From an uncultured Halobacteriales archaeon (lineage in GTDB: Archaea > Thermoplasmatota > E2 > JACPAO01 > JAHFTW01): a DNA stretch of 64,000 nt. Below, piece by piece: positions 8,207 to 64,000 of this stretch; positions within the stretch are counted from its first letter, which is position 1; each line of letters begins with the position of its first letter. The position numbers and the translations under genes are program-made. The stretch is from assembly GCA_964643795.1 (NCBI GenBank), contig CAZXUC010000003.1, forward strand, positions 13,549-77,548. Direction: 5' to 3'. Below the pieces are notes generated by a model. That model saw nothing but the letters and a program-made list of their open reading frames with translations. It had not been told where the DNA came from and made no database searches.

Positions 8207-8539
8207 TCACGGCTCGCAATGGCGCATGAGCCCAGCCAGGCAGTGGTCGACGAACTCGTCTGATGCCTGGCCAACCTTGCTGCCGAGGCGTTGTACTGCA
8301 ATGGTGCGGACCTGCCCCAGCTTCACCCACGACGGCTTGGCCACGACCCCTGGCGGAACGAGCGCTGATAGGGGAAAACCCAGGCGCTGCGGTGCCGTCG
8401 TCATGGGGAACGAGATGACCGTTCCTGAGCGGGAGTTGAAGTGCCCGTTGCTCGCGACGAGCACCGGTCGGCGGCCCGCCTGCTCGTGACCGAGGGTCGG
8501 CTCCAGGTCCGCCCAGTGAATGCTTCCTCGTTCGATCAT
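8207..8539 (-). CDS. mazF: MazF/PemK-family toxin (mRNA interferase)
   Basis: 110 aa. RGSIHWADLEPTLGHEQAGRRPVLV...SFPMTT...VKLGQVRTI matches the PemK pattern. 4-nt overlap with the upstream antitoxin. Confidence 0.85.
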   Translation of the reverse strand: MIERGSIHWADLEPTLGHEQAGRRPVLVASNGHFNSRSGTVISFPMTTAPQRLGFPLSALVPPGVVAKPSWVKLGQVRTIAVQRLGSKVGQASDEFVDHCLAGLMRHCEP

Positions 8540-8775
8540 CCGAACACTTCACCCTTGAAGCGCTCCTCGGCGAAGGCCACTTCCTCGACCGGGTCGAGCT
8601 GGGCCAGCATTGCAAGGTATTCGGCGTCCCGCTTCGCCTTCGCCTGCCGGGTCGCCTGATTCCGTAGCGCGGCCTCGATGGCGGCGCTCCGGCTCGCGAA
8701 CTCGTGCTTCTTGACGCGGGCATCCAAGGCCTTCACAAGGGAGGAATCCAGGCTGACGGCGACCTTCGTCTTCAT
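8536..8775 (-). CDS. Ribbon-helix-helix (CopG/MazE-like) antitoxin
   Basis: MKTKVAVSLDSSLVKALDARVKK...SRSAAIEAAL fits an RHH fold. ATG 8775 chosen inside ORF 8536-8850. Confidence 0.75.
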   Translation of the reverse strand: MKTKVAVSLDSSLVKALDARVKKHEFASRSAAIEAALRNQATRQAKAKRDAEYLAMLAQLDPVEEVAFAEERFKGEVFG

Positions 8776-8806
8776 GGTATGACCATAGTATGACGCCTGG
8801 TATGAA
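8776..8806 (-). promoter_or_regulatory. Putative mazEF operator/promoter: three GTATGA repeats spaced 11-12 bp
   Basis: GTATGA at 8777-8782, 8788-8793 and 8800-8805 (plus strand), directly upstream of the antitoxin ATG. Confidence 0.45.
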
Positions 8807-8862
8807 GGTTGTGGACGGGCCTTGGCCTGTCGGTGACCAATCTGGACCACCCGGACTCGAGC

Positions 8863-27366: not shown

Positions 27367-27511
27367 GTTTGCACGGCTTAAAGCGGTGGGGTGTCAAACC
27401 TGCCCGCCCTCACGGCGCCAGGGGCGCCGCGAACAGCCAGTGGCGGACGCGACCAAGACGAACCCGAAAACCGGAGCAGTCAGTCGTCTCCCTCCCAAGA
27501 GCTTTTCTACA

Positions 27512-27533
27512 TTGGACAACTACCACTGTCCAA
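27512..27533 (+). promoter_or_regulatory. Inverted repeat TTGGACA-N8-TGTCCAA abutting the start codon of the wHTH gene (putative operator)
   Basis: Read directly. The ATG at 27535 follows 1 nt later. Confidence 0.5.
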
Positions 27534-27534
27534 C

Positions 27535-27903
27535 ATGGCAAGACCTGCCGCAGACCTGCCGCCGCATTGGGACCTGACCCTTGCGCACCGAATCCTCGGC
27601 AAGGCCAGCGACCTCGACCGCAACGTGCTGCTTACCCTCATCGGCCGGCCGGTGCGCTTCAGCGAGCTGGAGCCCCTCCTGCGCGGCCGCAGGAAAAACA
27701 ACCTCACCCAGGCCATGGCCCGCCTGGAGTCTGAAGGGCTAATCCAGGCGCGCCTGAACGCTCGCCGCGACCCTCCCGTCCACACCTATGAGTTGACCGC
27801 GTTCGGCATCCTAGTCATCCGAAACCTGATCGCGCTCGAGAACGCCACACAAATCCCCGACCTGCTCCGTCGCCTCGATGCTGCAGCCGCCGCGACTGCG
27901 TGA
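27535..27903 (+). CDS. HxlR/MarR-like winged-helix regulator (cassette 1)
   Basis: RFSELEPLL...NLTQAMARLESEGLIQARL...PVHTYELTAFG. Paralogue of 63188-63556. Confidence 0.7.
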   Translation: MARPAADLPPHWDLTLAHRILGKASDLDRNVLLTLIGRPVRFSELEPLLRGRRKNNLTQAMARLESEGLIQARLNARRDPPVHTYELTAFGILVIRNLIALENATQIPDLLRRLDAAAAATA

Positions 27904-27912
27904 GGCGACCCG

Positions 27913-28353
27913 ATGACGGAAGCGTTCCCAGGCAACCCACGGGACGTCATCCATCCGCACCGGTTCGAAACGGCCGGCTACCTGCTTGCTACGAGCGCGC
28001 CGTGCACGCGCATCGTGGCGGACGAGGTGCGAATCGTGAAGCGGACATTGTATGCCCTCACATCGGGACACGCGCCGCCCGTCTCGCGACCAAGATCCTG
28101 GGTGCTCGCAATCCTTGTCTGCCCGGGCGACACCCTTGCCGGGATCGCGCCTTGGGTGCGCAGGCTCGCCTCACGGGACCGGGAACGAGTGTATGTGTAC
28201 TTTCACCCAGATACCGACCAAGTGGCGGCCTTGGCACCCTGGTACAAGGCCGGCCTCGACGACCCCATCACGAGCCTAGCCCAAGACTTCCGGTCCTTCC
28301 ATAAGTCGTTCGGCGCCCGGATGAACCTGCAAACCTACCTTGACTTCCGCTGA
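27913..28353 (+). CDS. Unknown 'CPGDT-motif' protein (cassette 1)
   Basis: 146 aa. SWVLAILVCPGDTLAGIAPW...ALAPWYKAG. Paralogue of the partial ORF at 63553-64000. Confidence 0.6.
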   Translation: MTEAFPGNPRDVIHPHRFETAGYLLATSAPCTRIVADEVRIVKRTLYALTSGHAPPVSRPRSWVLAILVCPGDTLAGIAPWVRRLASRDRERVYVYFHPDTDQVAALAPWYKAGLDDPITSLAQDFRSFHKSFGARMNLQTYLDFR

Positions 28354-28383: not shown

Positions 28384-29070
28384 TCAACGGTGACGCAACT
28401 GCGTGGAGCCACCGCCGGACGCCGACGCCGATCCAGGCGCCACGAGACGAACCGCAACTTCGGCTTCCAGGAGGGGGAACGTGGTGGCCAATTGTTCCAG
28501 CAGGTCCCCCACGGCGTCGGCGTAGTCTGCGCGGATGCGATTGACGGCGGGCGCGTCAGGGTCATCCGGCAAGAATTCCGGGGGGGCAAGCACCACGACC
28601 GTGGGGACCCCGATGCTCCAGTGGGCAAGGACGGCTCGTCCGCCTCGGCTGCGGCCTTCCGGGTCGTTATGCGTCAAGTGCTCGTACAGTGGATGCGCGA
28701 GGAGGAGGTCATCGAGTTCTTCATTGCGCAGGAAGCGCGCCATCCAATCCGCCACGAGGTCACTGGGTGCCAGCCAACCAGGCGCGTCCGGGCAGGGCAC
28801 GACGAGCAATGCCTCGTCCAGCGTCGAGGCCAGGGACTCCCGGCGGAACCCTGGTTTCGGCACGACGCGCAAGGCCGCCCCGCCGCCGTGCACCGCGAAC
28901 GGCAGGTCCGCTTCGTCCCAGAACGGCTCAGCCGCGACGAGCCGAATCGAACCCGCGCCGACGCAGTTCGCGTCACGCAGGGGCGCCGTGGCAGCCGCCC
29001 ACGGTCCTTTCATTCCACCGGGCCGCGTGCGCCTCGAGGGTTGCTTGTCTGGGCGCTGCTTGCTCCGCAT
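28384..29070 (-). CDS. Unknown protein coupled to the upstream amidohydrolase
   Basis: C-terminal 228 codons of ORF 28384-29439. ATG 29070 overlaps the upstream TGA by 1 nt. The protein-like part runs LRDANCVGAGSIRLVAAEPFWDEADLPF...LLEQLATTFPLLEAE. Confidence 0.55.
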   Translation of the reverse strand: MRSKQRPDKQPSRRTRPGGMKGPWAAATAPLRDANCVGAGSIRLVAAEPFWDEADLPFAVHGGGAALRVVPKPGFRRESLASTLDEALLVVPCPDAPGWLAPSDLVADWMARFLRNEELDDLLLAHPLYEHLTHNDPEGRSRGGRAVLAHWSIGVPTVVVLAPPEFLPDDPDAPAVNRIRADYADAVGDLLEQLATTFPLLEAEVAVRLVAPGSASASGGGSTQLRHR

Positions 29071-40304: not shown

Positions 40305-40376
40305 GCCGCCTTAGCTTAGCGGTGGAGCGGCGGACTGTTAATCCGCAGGTCGTCGGTTCAAATCCGACAGGCGGCG
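40305..40376 (+). tRNA. tRNA-Asn (GTT)
   Basis: Hand-folded cloverleaf: acceptor GCCGCCT/AGGCGGC, anticodon arm GCGGA-CTGTTAA-TCCGC, T arm GTCGG-TTCAAAT-CCGAC, discriminator G. No encoded CCA. Confidence 0.9.
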
Positions 40377-62920: not shown

Positions 62921-62993
62921 TGGGCCATTTCGGATTTGAACCGAAGGCTACGAGTCCCGAACCCGCAAGGTTACCAAGCTACCCCAATGGCCC
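62921..62993 (-). tRNA. tRNA-Pro (CGG)
   Basis: Hand fold of the reverse complement: acceptor GGGCCAT/ATGGCCC, anticodon loop TTCGGGA, T arm TTCGG-TTCAAAT-CCGAA, discriminator A. No CCA. Confidence 0.85.
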
Positions 62994-63156: not shown

Positions 63157-63186
63157 TTTATATCCGATACGTAGCCATGGCTACGT
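63157..63186 (+). promoter_or_regulatory. TATA box TTTATAT (63157-63163) plus perfect 18-bp palindrome ACGTAGCCATGGCTACGT (63169-63186), a putative operator
   Basis: Read directly. The palindrome ends at the start codon region (GTG 63185 / ATG 63188). Confidence 0.55.
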
Positions 63187-63187
63187 G

Positions 63188-63556
63188 ATGAAGGTCACGT
63201 CCTTTGCCGGGGAAGTACCGGAGCGGAATGCGGAGTTCCACCTGGCGCATCGCCTCATGGCCGCGGACGGAGACCTCGACCGCCGGGTGCTTGGCACTTT
63301 GGTCGGGCGGCCGCGCCGGTTCGCCGAACTCAAGCCACTGCTTGGCAAGCGCACCGAGGCGAACTTGACGCAGGCCCTGCAACGCTTGACGCGTGACGGC
63401 CTCATCATCCAGCGCGCCGCCGACTGGGACGACCCAAGCATCAAGACGCATGAACTCACTCCACTCGGCACGCTCGTCTTGTACCACATCGTGGAGATGG
63501 ACTTCGCGGCGCGGGCGGCCCGCCTGGGCTCCAGCCTCGCCGCGGCATCCGCATGA
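63188..63556 (+). CDS. HxlR/MarR-like winged-helix regulator (cassette 2)
   Basis: RFAELKPLL...NLTQALQRLTRDGLIIQR...IKTHELTPLG. Paralogue of 27535-27903. Confidence 0.7.
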   Translation: MKVTSFAGEVPERNAEFHLAHRLMAADGDLDRRVLGTLVGRPRRFAELKPLLGKRTEANLTQALQRLTRDGLIIQRAADWDDPSIKTHELTPLGTLVLYHIVEMDFAARAARLGSSLAAASA

Positions 63557-64000
63557 CTCCCGTGCCCCCCACGTTCCGGGACGTGGTGCAAAAGCATTGG
63601 CGCTCGACGCCAGCCTACGTCGTGGCAAACGTCCCGCCGTGCCTTGGCCTGCGCGACCAAGCAATCCTGCCGAAGGGGCGTCGCTACGAAGCCACCGCGT
63701 TCGGGGACTTGGCGAGCATCACGCCGCCGAAGAGCTGGGCCATGGCAGTCATCCTCTGCCCCGGGGACACACTCGACGACGTCGCCGCCTGGGCAATGCG
63801 GCACAAAGTCGAGGATGGCAACCGCTCCCTCTTCTTCCACGTGGCCGGCGTGGACCTCAGGGCGGCATTGGCTCCTTGGCGCGAGGCCGGCTACGGGTTG
63901 CCGTTGTTGGTGGAAGTGGAGACTTGGCTCGACATGGCTCGCGTTCTGGGCCAACACTTGAACAACACGATCCTCCGCGACCACACGGCGCCAGGCTGGC
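63553..64000 (+). CDS. Unknown 'CPGDT-motif' protein (cassette 2), 3' end off the window
   Basis: Own translation: MTPVPPTFRDVVQKHW...SWAMAVILCPGDTLDDVAAWA...ALAPWREAG... ATGA overlap with the regulator. Not in the ORF track because there is no stop in the window. Confidence 0.6.
   Translation, partial: MTPVPPTFRDVVQKHWRSTPAYVVANVPPCLGLRDQAILPKGRRYEATAFGDLASITPPKSWAMAVILCPGDTLDDVAAWAMRHKVEDGNRSLFFHVAGVDLRAALAPWREAGYGLPLLVEVETWLDMARVLGQHLNNTILRDHTAPGW

What the first reader, a model, noticed from the sequence alone, without database searches (positions are those of the whole stretch)
27512..28353. Two-gene cassette (HxlR-like wHTH + unknown 'CPGDT' protein) present twice, each with its own palindromic operator
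Cassette 1 is 27535-27903 plus 27913-28353. Cassette 2 is 63188-63556 plus 63553 to beyond 64000. The regulators align along their whole length (…RFSELEPLL…NLTQAMARLESEGLI… against …RFAELKPLL…NLTQALQRLTRDGLI…). The downstream proteins share RDV…PC…SW.(L/M)A(I/V)(L/I)(V/L)CPGDTL…W…ALAPW..AG, a motif I cannot place in any known family. Each cassette has a different inverted repeat directly over its start: TTGGACA-N8-TGTCCAA in one, and a perfect 18-bp ACGTAGCCATGGCTACGT downstream of a TTTATAT box in the other. This suggests paralogue-specific autoregulation. Small size, tight coupling (9-nt gap or ATGA overlap), an operator over the promoter and multiple copies are reminiscent of toxin-antitoxin or small stress/defence modules. 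That reading is inference only.
Basis: partly seen in the sequence, partly recalled or inferred. Interest (0 to 1): 0.65.

Follow-up and report, generated by a model that had tools for sequence, protein, structure and literature searches.

The report
Archaeal repressor plus orphan two-cysteine protein
A small self-regulating gene pair, present twice in this archaeal genome and conserved in related uncultured Thermoplasmatota, couples a cysteine-free HxlR-type DNA-binding repressor to a previously undescribed small protein with two conserved cysteines; it is probably a thiol-based stress or sensing unit, not a toxin-antitoxin system.

Summary
Two paralogous cassettes exist: R1 27535-27903 with U1 27913-28353, and R2 63188-63556 with U2 from 63553, 151 aa in full. 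Each has its own palindrome between a TATA-like box and the start codon. R is an HxlR-family winged-helix protein with no cysteine. U matches no Pfam, NCBIfam, PADLOC, PHROG or PDB sequence family. About 119 clusters at 50% identity exist among 1.84 billion proteins. AlphaFold models are confident (pLDDT 93 and 90) and show a five-stranded flavodoxin-like fold. They give only weak matches to SIS domains and CheY-like receivers. Two cysteines (C31, C70) and D73 are over 90% conserved, and the cysteines are usually lost together. R sits next to U in 18 of 19 independent contexts, 11 co-directional and 7 divergent. Their trees agree and no third gene is conserved. A clade-specific palindrome lies 0-4 nt before the R start in most cassettes.

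Paralogue-specific autoregulation is well supported. The toxin-antitoxin or defence reading is not: many pairs are divergent, U resembles no toxin, and no plasmid or virus copies were found. I read it as an autoregulated repressor with a dedicated thiol-reactive partner or cargo. The biochemical role of U remains unknown.

The parts
27502..27511 (+). AT-rich TATA-like box of cassette 1 (CTTTTCTACA), centred about 28 nt before the R1 ATG
   Evidence: Read directly. An equivalent AT-rich box lies 4-6 nt upstream of the palindrome in orthologues and other clades. Its function as a TATA box is inferred from archaeal promoter geometry.
27512..27533 (.). Operator 1: inverted repeat TTGGACA-N8-TGTCCAA, ending 1 nt before the R1 start codon
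   Evidence: It is unique in the window, with 0.17 matches expected by chance. It is conserved with compensatory changes in L002 (TGGATAA-N6-TTATCCA) and L003 (TTGGACAAC-N4-GTTGTCCAA).
27535..27903 (+). R1: 122-aa HxlR-family winged-helix regulator with no cysteine
   Evidence: Pfam PF01638, E 2.2e-6, above the cut-off. Weak PDB sequence matches to HxlR-type YtcD (2hzt) and 7kd3. The exact 122-aa product is on record in the public collection. Cysteine count.
27902..27905 (+). Shine-Dalgarno-like GAGG, with 7 nt between it and the U1 ATG, overlapping the R1 stop codon
   Evidence: Read directly. Its function is inferred.
27913..28353 (+). U1: 146-aa member of an orphan two-cysteine flavodoxin-like family (C31, C70, D73)
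   Evidence: No family hit. AF2 pLDDT 93 and pTM 0.87. Foldseek PDB TM-scores at most 0.53. Residue conservation.
63157..63163 (+). TATA box of cassette 2 (TTTATAT), centred 28 nt before the R2 ATG
   Evidence: Read directly. The identical box is present in orthologue L006.
63169..63186 (.). Operator 2: perfect 18-bp palindrome ACGTAGCCATGGCTACGT, ending 1 nt before the R2 ATG
   Evidence: 0 of 100 shuffles give a match even with 3 mismatches allowed. It is conserved in L006 as CACGTAGC-N4-GCTACGTG.
63188..63556 (+). R2: 122-aa HxlR-family regulator, paralogue of R1 (46% identity), with no cysteine
63553..64000 (+). U2: paralogue of U1 (30% identity). Its ATG overlaps the R2 stop codon (ATGA). 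The window cuts it; the full length is 151 aa (P0014).
   Evidence: AF2 pLDDT 89.7 with the same beta-alpha order as U1. Foldseek results.

Best explanation
Each cassette is a self-contained, autoregulated two-gene unit. R is a cysteine-free HxlR-type winged-helix protein. It probably binds as a dimer to a cassette-specific palindrome. That palindrome fills the space between the TATA box and the start of an essentially leaderless R transcript. Binding there would block transcription of R together with U. U is either co-transcribed behind R or read divergently from the same TATA/operator region.

U is the only conserved cargo of the unit. It is a cytoplasmic protein of about 150 aa with a five-stranded flavodoxin-like (SIS-like or CheY-like) fold. 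It carries a conserved Cys-Cys-Asp cluster that, from the order of secondary-structure elements, should sit at the C-terminal edge of the sheet. C31 lies at the N-terminus of helix 1, and C70 and D73 follow strand 3. I take U to be a thiol-reactive protein that forms a disulfide or binds a metal or an Fe-S cluster. The unit would then be a redox, electrophile or metal stress module in which the thiol chemistry normally carried by HxlR-family regulators has been placed in the partner protein.

The two copies in this genome have diverged in operator, regulator and partner, so they are insulated from each other.

Shown: gene order, homology, pair conservation, operator position and conservation, fold class, and the conservation pattern of the cysteines. 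Inferred: repression by R, leaderless transcription, spatial closeness of the two cysteines, and thiol reactivity.
For: R is HxlR family.

Of 14 R promoters scanned from independent lineages, 11 have a perfect-arm palindrome of at least 7 bp, and 9 of these end 0-4 nt before the ATG; two more cassettes (L008, L010a) have imperfect or ATG-overlapping repeats at the same place. An AT-rich box lies just upstream of these palindromes. Three further divergent loci, read by eye, show the same layout. The palindrome sequence changes with the regulator clade. Arm changes are compensatory within the cassette-1 clade.

Each operator occurs only once in the 64 kb window.

R is adjacent to U in 18 of 19 independent contexts, including U members only 13-30% identical to each other. 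Eleven pairs are co-directional and 7 divergent. The R and U distance matrices are congruent (Mantel r = 0.90, p <= 0.0005). No third gene recurs next to the pair.

Fourteen of the 15 R sequences have no cysteine. The reactive N-terminal Cys is conserved among HxlR/DUF24 regulators (PMC3351151).

In U, C31 and C70 co-occur in 85 of 92 members and are both absent in 5 of the 7 exceptions. Fifty-two of 92 members have exactly two cysteines, and D73 is 91% conserved.

The AF2 models of both paralogues are confident and share the same beta-alpha order.
Against: No experiment or transcript data is available, so R binding, repression and leaderless starts are all inferred.

I could not obtain model coordinates. 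The closeness of C31 and C70 is deduced from topology only.

A few distant family members lack both cysteines (P0106 and P0123), so thiol chemistry cannot be the function of every member.

One U gene (P0025) has no R gene upstream.

Nothing identifies a substrate, ligand or stress signal. The neighbouring genes vary and are uninformative.

Only 64 kb of the genome was searched for further operator copies, so a wider regulon is not excluded.
Confidence: 0.45

Rival explanations
1. Split one-component switch. U is not a cargo but the signal-input subunit. It senses oxidation, a metal or a small ligand at the Cys-Cys-Asp site. It then binds R and changes R's affinity for DNA. R controls the cassette and possibly further genes elsewhere.
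For: The 1:1 pairing is strict, independent of gene orientation, and co-diverging. R lacks the sensing Cys of its family while U carries an invariant Cys pair. U's nearest structural classes are typical input domains of DNA-binding regulators: SIS domains, with the best Foldseek E-values for both paralogues, and REC receivers, with the best TM-scores of 0.50-0.57. An HxlR-REC-HalX fusion architecture exists in Halobacteria (PMC5847659). HTH-SIS fusions in RpiR-type regulators are established knowledge.
Against: No R-U fusion protein was seen among 119 family representatives. No further operator copy occurs in the window. Structural similarity is weak (SIS TM about 0.4) and profile-profile comparisons are negative.
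Confidence: 0.27
2. Type II toxin-antitoxin or small defence module. R is a DNA-binding antitoxin and U is a toxin or effector held in check by R.
For: The genes are small and tightly linked, with an operator over the promoter. The genome holds several diverged copies, and one relative has a tandem duplicate (L010). Genomic contexts vary and there is no third conserved gene. Cassette 2 lies beside a tRNA gene. The orthologue of cassette 2 in L006 precedes a run of unknown genes and a HATPase_c_3 gene.
Against: Seven of 18 pairs are divergently transcribed, which does not fit the obligate co-transcription of type II systems. R is as conserved as U or more so, 44-46% against 29-30% between the window paralogues, which is the reverse of the usual toxin-antitoxin trend. 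U gives no PADLOC, Pfam or PHROG hit and has no fold match to PIN, RelE, MazF, HEPN, Doc or GNAT toxins. No relative was found in IMG/VR, PLSDB or INPHARED. The family is very small and lineage-restricted. The window holds a canonical MazF-RHH pair for contrast.
Confidence: 0.1
3. U is a minimised SIS-type phosphosugar-binding or isomerase domain, by analogy with HxlR controlling hxlB, which encodes the SIS-fold enzyme 6-phospho-3-hexuloisomerase. The cassette would then respond to, or act on, a phosphosugar or aldehyde metabolite.
For: The best Foldseek E-values for both independent models are to SIS domains. U1 hits MJ1247, a phosphohexuloisomerase (1jeo), at E 2.5e-4. U2 hits the GlmS isomerase domain (1moq) at E 7e-4, and also KdsD and FraB. 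By eye, LVCPGDT following strand 3 resembles the SIS phosphate loop ISQSGET; this comparison was not computed.
Against: TM-scores are only 0.36-0.42 with rmsd 7-10 Å. No Pfam SIS hit occurs in any of 72 members. The SIS serines and threonines are replaced by Cys and Pro. U is 30-40 residues shorter than SIS domains.
Confidence: 0.1

Closest known systems
HxlR/DUF24-family regulators with an adjacent dedicated target gene (B. subtilis HypR-hypO, YodB-azoR1/yodC, HxlR-hxlAB)
   Same: R has the same winged-helix family (PF01638). It is a small protein of about 120 aa next to the gene it presumably controls. Both co-directional and divergent layouts occur. The targets of characterised members are often flavodoxin-like or oxidoreductase-type stress proteins (PMC3351151).
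   Different: R has no cysteine at all, whereas the N-terminal reactive Cys is conserved in the family. The partner is an orphan 2-Cys protein, not a recognisable oxidoreductase. The pair is archaeal, with a TATA-operator-leaderless layout.
SIS domains (phosphosugar isomerase or binding; GlmS, PHI/HxlB, KdsD; sensor domain of RpiR/MurR regulators)
   Same: Both have a three-layer alpha/beta/alpha fold with five parallel strands. SIS domains give the best Foldseek E-values for both U models. In RpiR-type regulators the SIS domain works together with an HTH domain (established knowledge).
   Different: No similarity is detectable by sequence or profile. TM-scores are about 0.4. The phosphate-binding Ser/Thr motifs are absent. 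U is shorter.
CheY-like receiver (REC) domains, including the haloarchaeal HxlR-REC-HalX architecture
   Same: Both have (beta-alpha)5 topology. REC domains give the highest TM-scores (0.50-0.57). By order of secondary-structure elements, C70 sits at the end of strand 3, where REC has its phospho-acceptor Asp; this is an inference. There is precedent for HxlR coupled to such a fold (PMC5847659).
   Different: hhalign probability is 0.1% and there is no Pfam Response_reg hit. The Asp-Asp / Asp / Thr / Lys signature is absent. Helix 2 is replaced by a long loop. U has extra N-terminal and long C-terminal helices.
Type II toxin-antitoxin operons (for example the MazF-RHH pair at 8207-8850 in this same window)
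   Same: Both consist of two small adjacent genes with the DNA-binding protein first and a palindromic operator over the promoter. Both occur as several diverged copies per genome.
   Different: Many R-U pairs are divergent. U has no toxin-like fold or family. The DNA-binding partner is not the faster-evolving one. No association with mobile elements was found.

Membership tests
HxlR/DUF24 winged-helix regulators (for R) | Match to the HxlR winged-helix domain (PF01638) above the curated cut-off | tested here: met
   R1 scores 27.9 bits and R2 28.1 bits against a cut-off of 20.8. Weak PDB sequence hits to the HxlR-type structures 2hzt and 7kd3.
HxlR/DUF24 winged-helix regulators (for R) | Conserved reactive Cys at the N-terminus of helix alpha1, the thiol switch of HypR, YodB and HxlR | tested here: not met
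   No cysteine in R1, R2 or 12 further R homologues; one has a single Cys elsewhere. The family feature is taken from PMC3351151.
HxlR/DUF24 winged-helix regulators (for R) | Binds an inverted repeat at the promoter of its own or the adjacent gene | not testable with these tools
   Position-conserved, clade-specific palindromes are present. Binding itself needs EMSA or footprinting.
Type II toxin-antitoxin module | Two genes co-transcribed as one operon | tested here: not met
   Eleven pairs are co-directional but 7 of 18 independent pairs are divergent.
Type II toxin-antitoxin module | Second protein belongs to, or folds like, a known toxin family | tested here: not met
   No Pfam, NCBIfam, PADLOC or PHROG hit. 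No toxin fold appears among the top 50 Foldseek matches for either paralogue.
Type II toxin-antitoxin module | Toxicity of one partner, neutralised by the other | not testable with these tools
   This needs an expression and rescue assay.
SIS domain (PF01380) (for U) | Sequence or profile match to SIS | tested here: not met
   None of 72 members hits SIS in Pfam at E <= 0.1. hhalign against a hand-made SIS alignment gives 0.1% probability. The alignment was small, so this is a weak test.
SIS domain (PF01380) (for U) | Structural superposition on the SIS fold | tested here: inconclusive
   SIS domains give the best Foldseek E-values (2.5e-4 and 7e-4), but TM-scores are 0.36-0.42 and rmsd 7-10 Å.
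CheY-like receiver domain (PF00072) (for U) | Sequence or profile match and the acidic pocket, Thr and Lys signature | tested here: not met
   No Pfam hit. hhalign probability 0.1%. The conserved residues are C31, R44, C70, D73, R92, W110 and D144, not the REC set.
CheY-like receiver domain (PF00072) (for U) | (beta-alpha)5 fold superposition | tested here: inconclusive
   TM-scores of 0.47-0.57 to several receivers. This is the same fold class, but below what would show homology.

The most novel reading that the evidence does not exclude
U is a new kind of signal-input domain. It would be a receiver-like or SIS-like (beta-alpha)5 module in which a cysteine pair occupies the ligand or phospho-acceptor site. 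U would pass its redox, metal or Fe-S state to a separate, cysteine-free HxlR repressor by direct binding. That would make a split, thiol-based analogue of a response regulator, expanded into mutually insulated paralogous pairs in Thermoplasmatota.
Probability: 0.2. Interest if true: 0.7.

Novelty: new variant of a known kind. Interest (0 to 1): 0.42.

Why it matters
Regulation in uncultured Thermoplasmatota is almost unstudied. This pair offers a compact and testable unit: a repressor, a predicted operator for each paralogue, and one partner protein. The partner defines a protein family with a confident predicted structure and no annotation. If U proves to be the thiol sensor for a cysteine-free HxlR protein, that would show a new way of splitting sensing from DNA binding. 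It would also supply naturally orthogonal repressor-operator pairs for archaeal genetics. If U is simply a small stress protein under HxlR control, the result is a useful annotation for a lineage-specific family and little more.

Tried and rejected
- **Family searches for U.** Pfam, NCBIfam, PADLOC and PHROG scans of U1 and U2, and a Pfam scan of 72 family members, found nothing.
- **PDB sequence searches.** Profiles built from 22 and from 72 sequences gave nothing below E 0.6.
- **Foldseek against viral structures (BFVD).** Nothing below E 0.004, and no informative hit.
- **REC homology.** hhalign of the family against a six-sequence REC alignment gave 0.1% probability. I reject it as sequence homology.
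- **SIS homology.** hhalign against a six-sequence SIS alignment gave 0.1% probability. No SIS protein was present in the held loci to improve the alignment.
- **R-U complex model.** R1 and U1 are in the same reading frame, so I tried to model a read-through fusion. Contact between R and U remains untested.
- **Searches with the wide alignment A2.** Both collection scans with A2 (metagenome and viral contigs) failed because no stretch was conserved enough. I repeated them with A1.
- **PIN, Toprim, LMW-PTP/ArsC, rhodanese, DsrE and LOG motifs.** I considered these by eye. The signature residues are missing and none appears in the top Foldseek lists, so I rejected them.
- **tRNA adjacency as a sign of an integrated element.** Three of the contexts examined lie near a tRNA gene. 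That is too few to mean anything.
- **A conserved third gene.** None was found.
- **Literature.** Searches for HxlR with archaea, antitoxin or Thermoplasmatota found nothing describing this pair.

Full report
**1. The observation**

- R1 (27535-27903) and R2 (63188-63556) are both 122 aa. They share 46% identity, E 2e-28.
- U1 (27913-28353) is 146 aa. U2 starts at 63553 and shares 30% identity with U1, E 4e-22. The window cuts U2 two codons before its stop. The full-length protein is 151 aa (P0014).
- Cassette 1 has a 9-nt gap containing a GAGG. Cassette 2 has an ATGA overlap.
- The inverted repeats are exact: TTGGACA-N8-TGTCCAA at 27512-27533 and ACGTAGCCATGGCTACGT at 63169-63186.
- Each repeat is unique in the window. 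Shuffles give 0.17 and 0.00 expected matches.
- No third copy of either gene lies in the 64 kb.
- The window is 64% G+C and comes from a Thermoplasmatota-type archaeon. All relatives found in genomes are Thermoplasmatota-like MAGs, some labelled Halobacteriales or Methanobacteriota by their submitters.

**2. The regulator**

R1 and R2 match Pfam HxlR (PF01638) above the curated cut-off. They align weakly with the HxlR-type structures 2hzt (YtcD) and 7kd3. The exact 122-aa products are on record in the public protein collection, which supports the chosen start codons.

Neither R1 nor R2, nor 12 further homologues from other loci, contains a cysteine. This matters because the characterised members of this family sense stress through a reactive N-terminal Cys. 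[quoted passage not shown]

**3. The partner protein**

U matches nothing in Pfam, NCBIfam or PADLOC, and only a non-significant E 0.27 for U2 in PHROGs. None of 72 diverse family members hits any Pfam model meaningfully. Profiles of the family find no PDB sequence.

An exhaustive HMMER search of 1.84 billion cluster representatives returns only 119 proteins at E <= 0.001. Nearly all of the full-length matches are about 150 aa. The family is therefore small and lineage-restricted.

AlphaFold2 models of both paralogues are confident: U1 has pLDDT 93 and pTM 0.87, and U2 has pLDDT 89.7 and pTM 0.85. Both show the same order of elements: an N-terminal helix, then beta1-alpha1-beta2-loop-beta3-alpha3-beta4-alpha4-beta5, then a long C-terminal helix. 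This is a flavodoxin-like three-layer fold.

Foldseek against the PDB gives no close neighbour.
- The best E-values for both models are to SIS domains. U1 hits MJ1247 phosphohexuloisomerase at 2.5e-4. U2 hits the GlmS isomerase domain at 7e-4. TM-scores are about 0.4.
- The best TM-scores (0.50-0.57) are to CheY-like receivers.
- Flavodoxins, NrdI, CENP-M and a bacterial TIR domain also appear.

Profile-profile comparisons with small REC and SIS alignments are negative. The viral structure library gives nothing useful.

Across 92 members, seven residues are conserved in more than 90%: C31, R44, C70, D73, R92, W110 and D144. W63 (91%) and W81 (89%) are close behind. C31 and C70 co-occur in 85 of 92 members and are lost together in 5 of the 7 exceptions. 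More than half of the members have exactly these two cysteines.

From the order of secondary-structure elements, C31 caps helix 1 and C70 and D73 follow strand 3. This corresponds to the ligand or phospho-acceptor edge of SIS and REC domains. That placement is an inference, because I could not read model coordinates.

**4. The pairing is real and old**

I collected 19 independent genomic contexts through exact-protein look-ups and through genome and metagenome scans.
- R lies next to U in 18 of them.
- This includes U members only 13-30% identical to the window proteins, whose neighbours still match an R profile at E 1e-10 to 1e-22.
- Eleven pairs are co-directional and seven are divergent. 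Divergent pairs arose at least twice.
- One locus, L010, has a tandem duplicate.
- The single exception, P0025, has a Cas4-like gene upstream instead of R.
- The R and U distance matrices are congruent (Mantel r = 0.90, p <= 0.0005).
- An all-against-all comparison of flanking ORFs finds no third recurring gene. The surrounding genes are ordinary and variable: glycyl-tRNA synthetase, an amidohydrolase, glycerol kinase, MoaA, G3P dehydrogenase, Pelota and NFACT.
- No relative was found in IMG/VR, PLSDB or INPHARED.

**5. The operators**

In 9 of the 14 scanned R promoters, a palindrome with perfect arms of at least 7 bp ends 0-4 nt before the R start codon; 11 of the 14 have such a palindrome somewhere in the 70 nt upstream. 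An AT-rich TATA-like box lies 4-6 nt upstream of it, centred about 24-33 nt before the ATG. Three more divergent loci show the same layout.

The palindrome sequence tracks the regulator clade.
- The cassette-1 clade has GGACA/TGTCC-type arms. L002 shows a compensatory change (TGGATAA..TTATCCA).
- The cassette-2 clade has ACGTAGC..GCTACGT.
- The divergent clade has CACAATA-NN-TATTGTG.
- Other clades have ACACAG..CTGTGT, ACACTCA..TGAGTGT and TTACCCATGGGTAA.

The recognition-helix region (NLTQAMA, NLTQALQ, NLTVSL, NLTMSL) changes in step with the palindrome.

In archaea the TATA box lies about 26 nt upstream of the transcription start. This geometry therefore implies leaderless R transcripts and an operator between the TATA box and the start. 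That is the classic position for an archaeal repressor to block polymerase recruitment. This step rests on established promoter knowledge, not on data.

In divergent pairs a single TATA box sits between the operator and the U start, about 28 nt away on the other side. One bound R dimer could therefore control both genes.

**6. What it most likely is**

The data support a self-contained unit in which R represses its own promoter and thereby U.

I rank 'HxlR-type repressor plus a dedicated thiol-reactive cargo' first, at 0.45. It is the most economical reading and matches how HxlR-family regulators are usually organised.

The main rival, at 0.27, is that U is the sensor subunit that feeds back on R. 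Three points favour it: the division of labour between a cysteine-free R and a two-cysteine U, the strict co-divergence, and the fact that U's nearest fold classes are input domains of DNA-binding regulators. RpiR-type HTH-SIS regulators are one example, response regulators another, and Halobacteria have an HxlR-REC-HalX architecture (PMC5847659).

A toxin-antitoxin or defence reading gets 0.1. Divergent pairs are frequent, R is as conserved as U or more so, U resembles no toxin, and no link to mobile elements was found. The window's own MazF-RHH pair at 8207-8850 shows what a canonical module looks like here.

A minimised SIS phosphosugar-binding role also gets 0.1. It rests only on weak Foldseek E-values and a resemblance I saw by eye between LVCPGDT and the SIS loop ISQSGET.

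**7. Novelty and score**

The regulator and its autoregulatory logic are of a known kind. The partner is an unannotated family with a confident model. The conserved pairing with a cysteine-free HxlR protein has not been described in the literature I could search. I class the finding as a new variant of a known kind and score its interest at 0.42. It is a solid, testable, lineage-specific module, but nothing yet shows an unexpected mechanism.

Noticed in passing
window 8207-8850 (- strand): A canonical type II toxin-antitoxin pair. A 110-aa PemK/MazF toxin (PF02452, E 2.7e-24) at 8207-8539 overlaps by 4 nt an upstream 104-aa ribbon-helix-helix CopG-type protein at 8536-8850.
   Followed up: partly
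window 62921-62993 (- strand): ARAGORN calls a tRNA-Pro(CGG) here, 194 bp from R2 and divergent from it. The Rfam scan at gathering threshold reported only the other two tRNAs of the window, at 40305 and 41784. The discrepancy is unexplained.
   Followed up: no
L010 6277-8420: Two complete R-U cassettes lie in tandem in a groundwater MAG (JACPAO010000120.1). U is 96% and R 93% identical between the copies, and the promoter/operator regions are near-identical. This looks like a recent duplication of the whole unit.
   Followed up: partly
L002 1-9100: The orthologue of cassette 1 in this contig lies in a redox- and metal-flavoured neighbourhood. It includes two further, more distant HxlR genes (365-742 and 2198-2557), a DsbD_TM/HMA protein, a faint rubrerythrin hit and a hemerythrin. 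This fits a redox role only circumstantially.
   Followed up: no
L006 2328-7298, and the end of L007: Downstream of the cassette-2 orthologue lie four ORFs with no family, then a HATPase_c_3 protein (weak PADLOC MzaB hit, E 8e-6) and a Methyltransf_35 gene. The Logan contig carrying the window's own cassette 2 ends 217 bp after U2. Cassette 2 may sit at the edge of a variable region.
   Followed up: partly
L008, L009, L018, L021, L022 (R-U intergenic regions, about 55-80 bp): In divergent pairs, one near-symmetric TATA box (for example TATATAT or TTTATAGA) lies between the R operator and the U start, about 28 nt from each start codon. This suggests a bidirectional leaderless promoter built on a single TATA element.
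   Followed up: partly
proteins P0106 and P0123: Two distant family members of about 290 aa lack both conserved cysteines and carry a C-terminal extension of about 150 aa of unknown nature. Thiol chemistry is therefore not universal in the family.
   Followed up: no
window 28384-29070 (- strand): A 228-aa ORF immediately downstream of U1 and convergent with it is called as a gene in the public assembly. It has no Pfam or PADLOC match, and it is not conserved next to other cassettes.
   Followed up: partly
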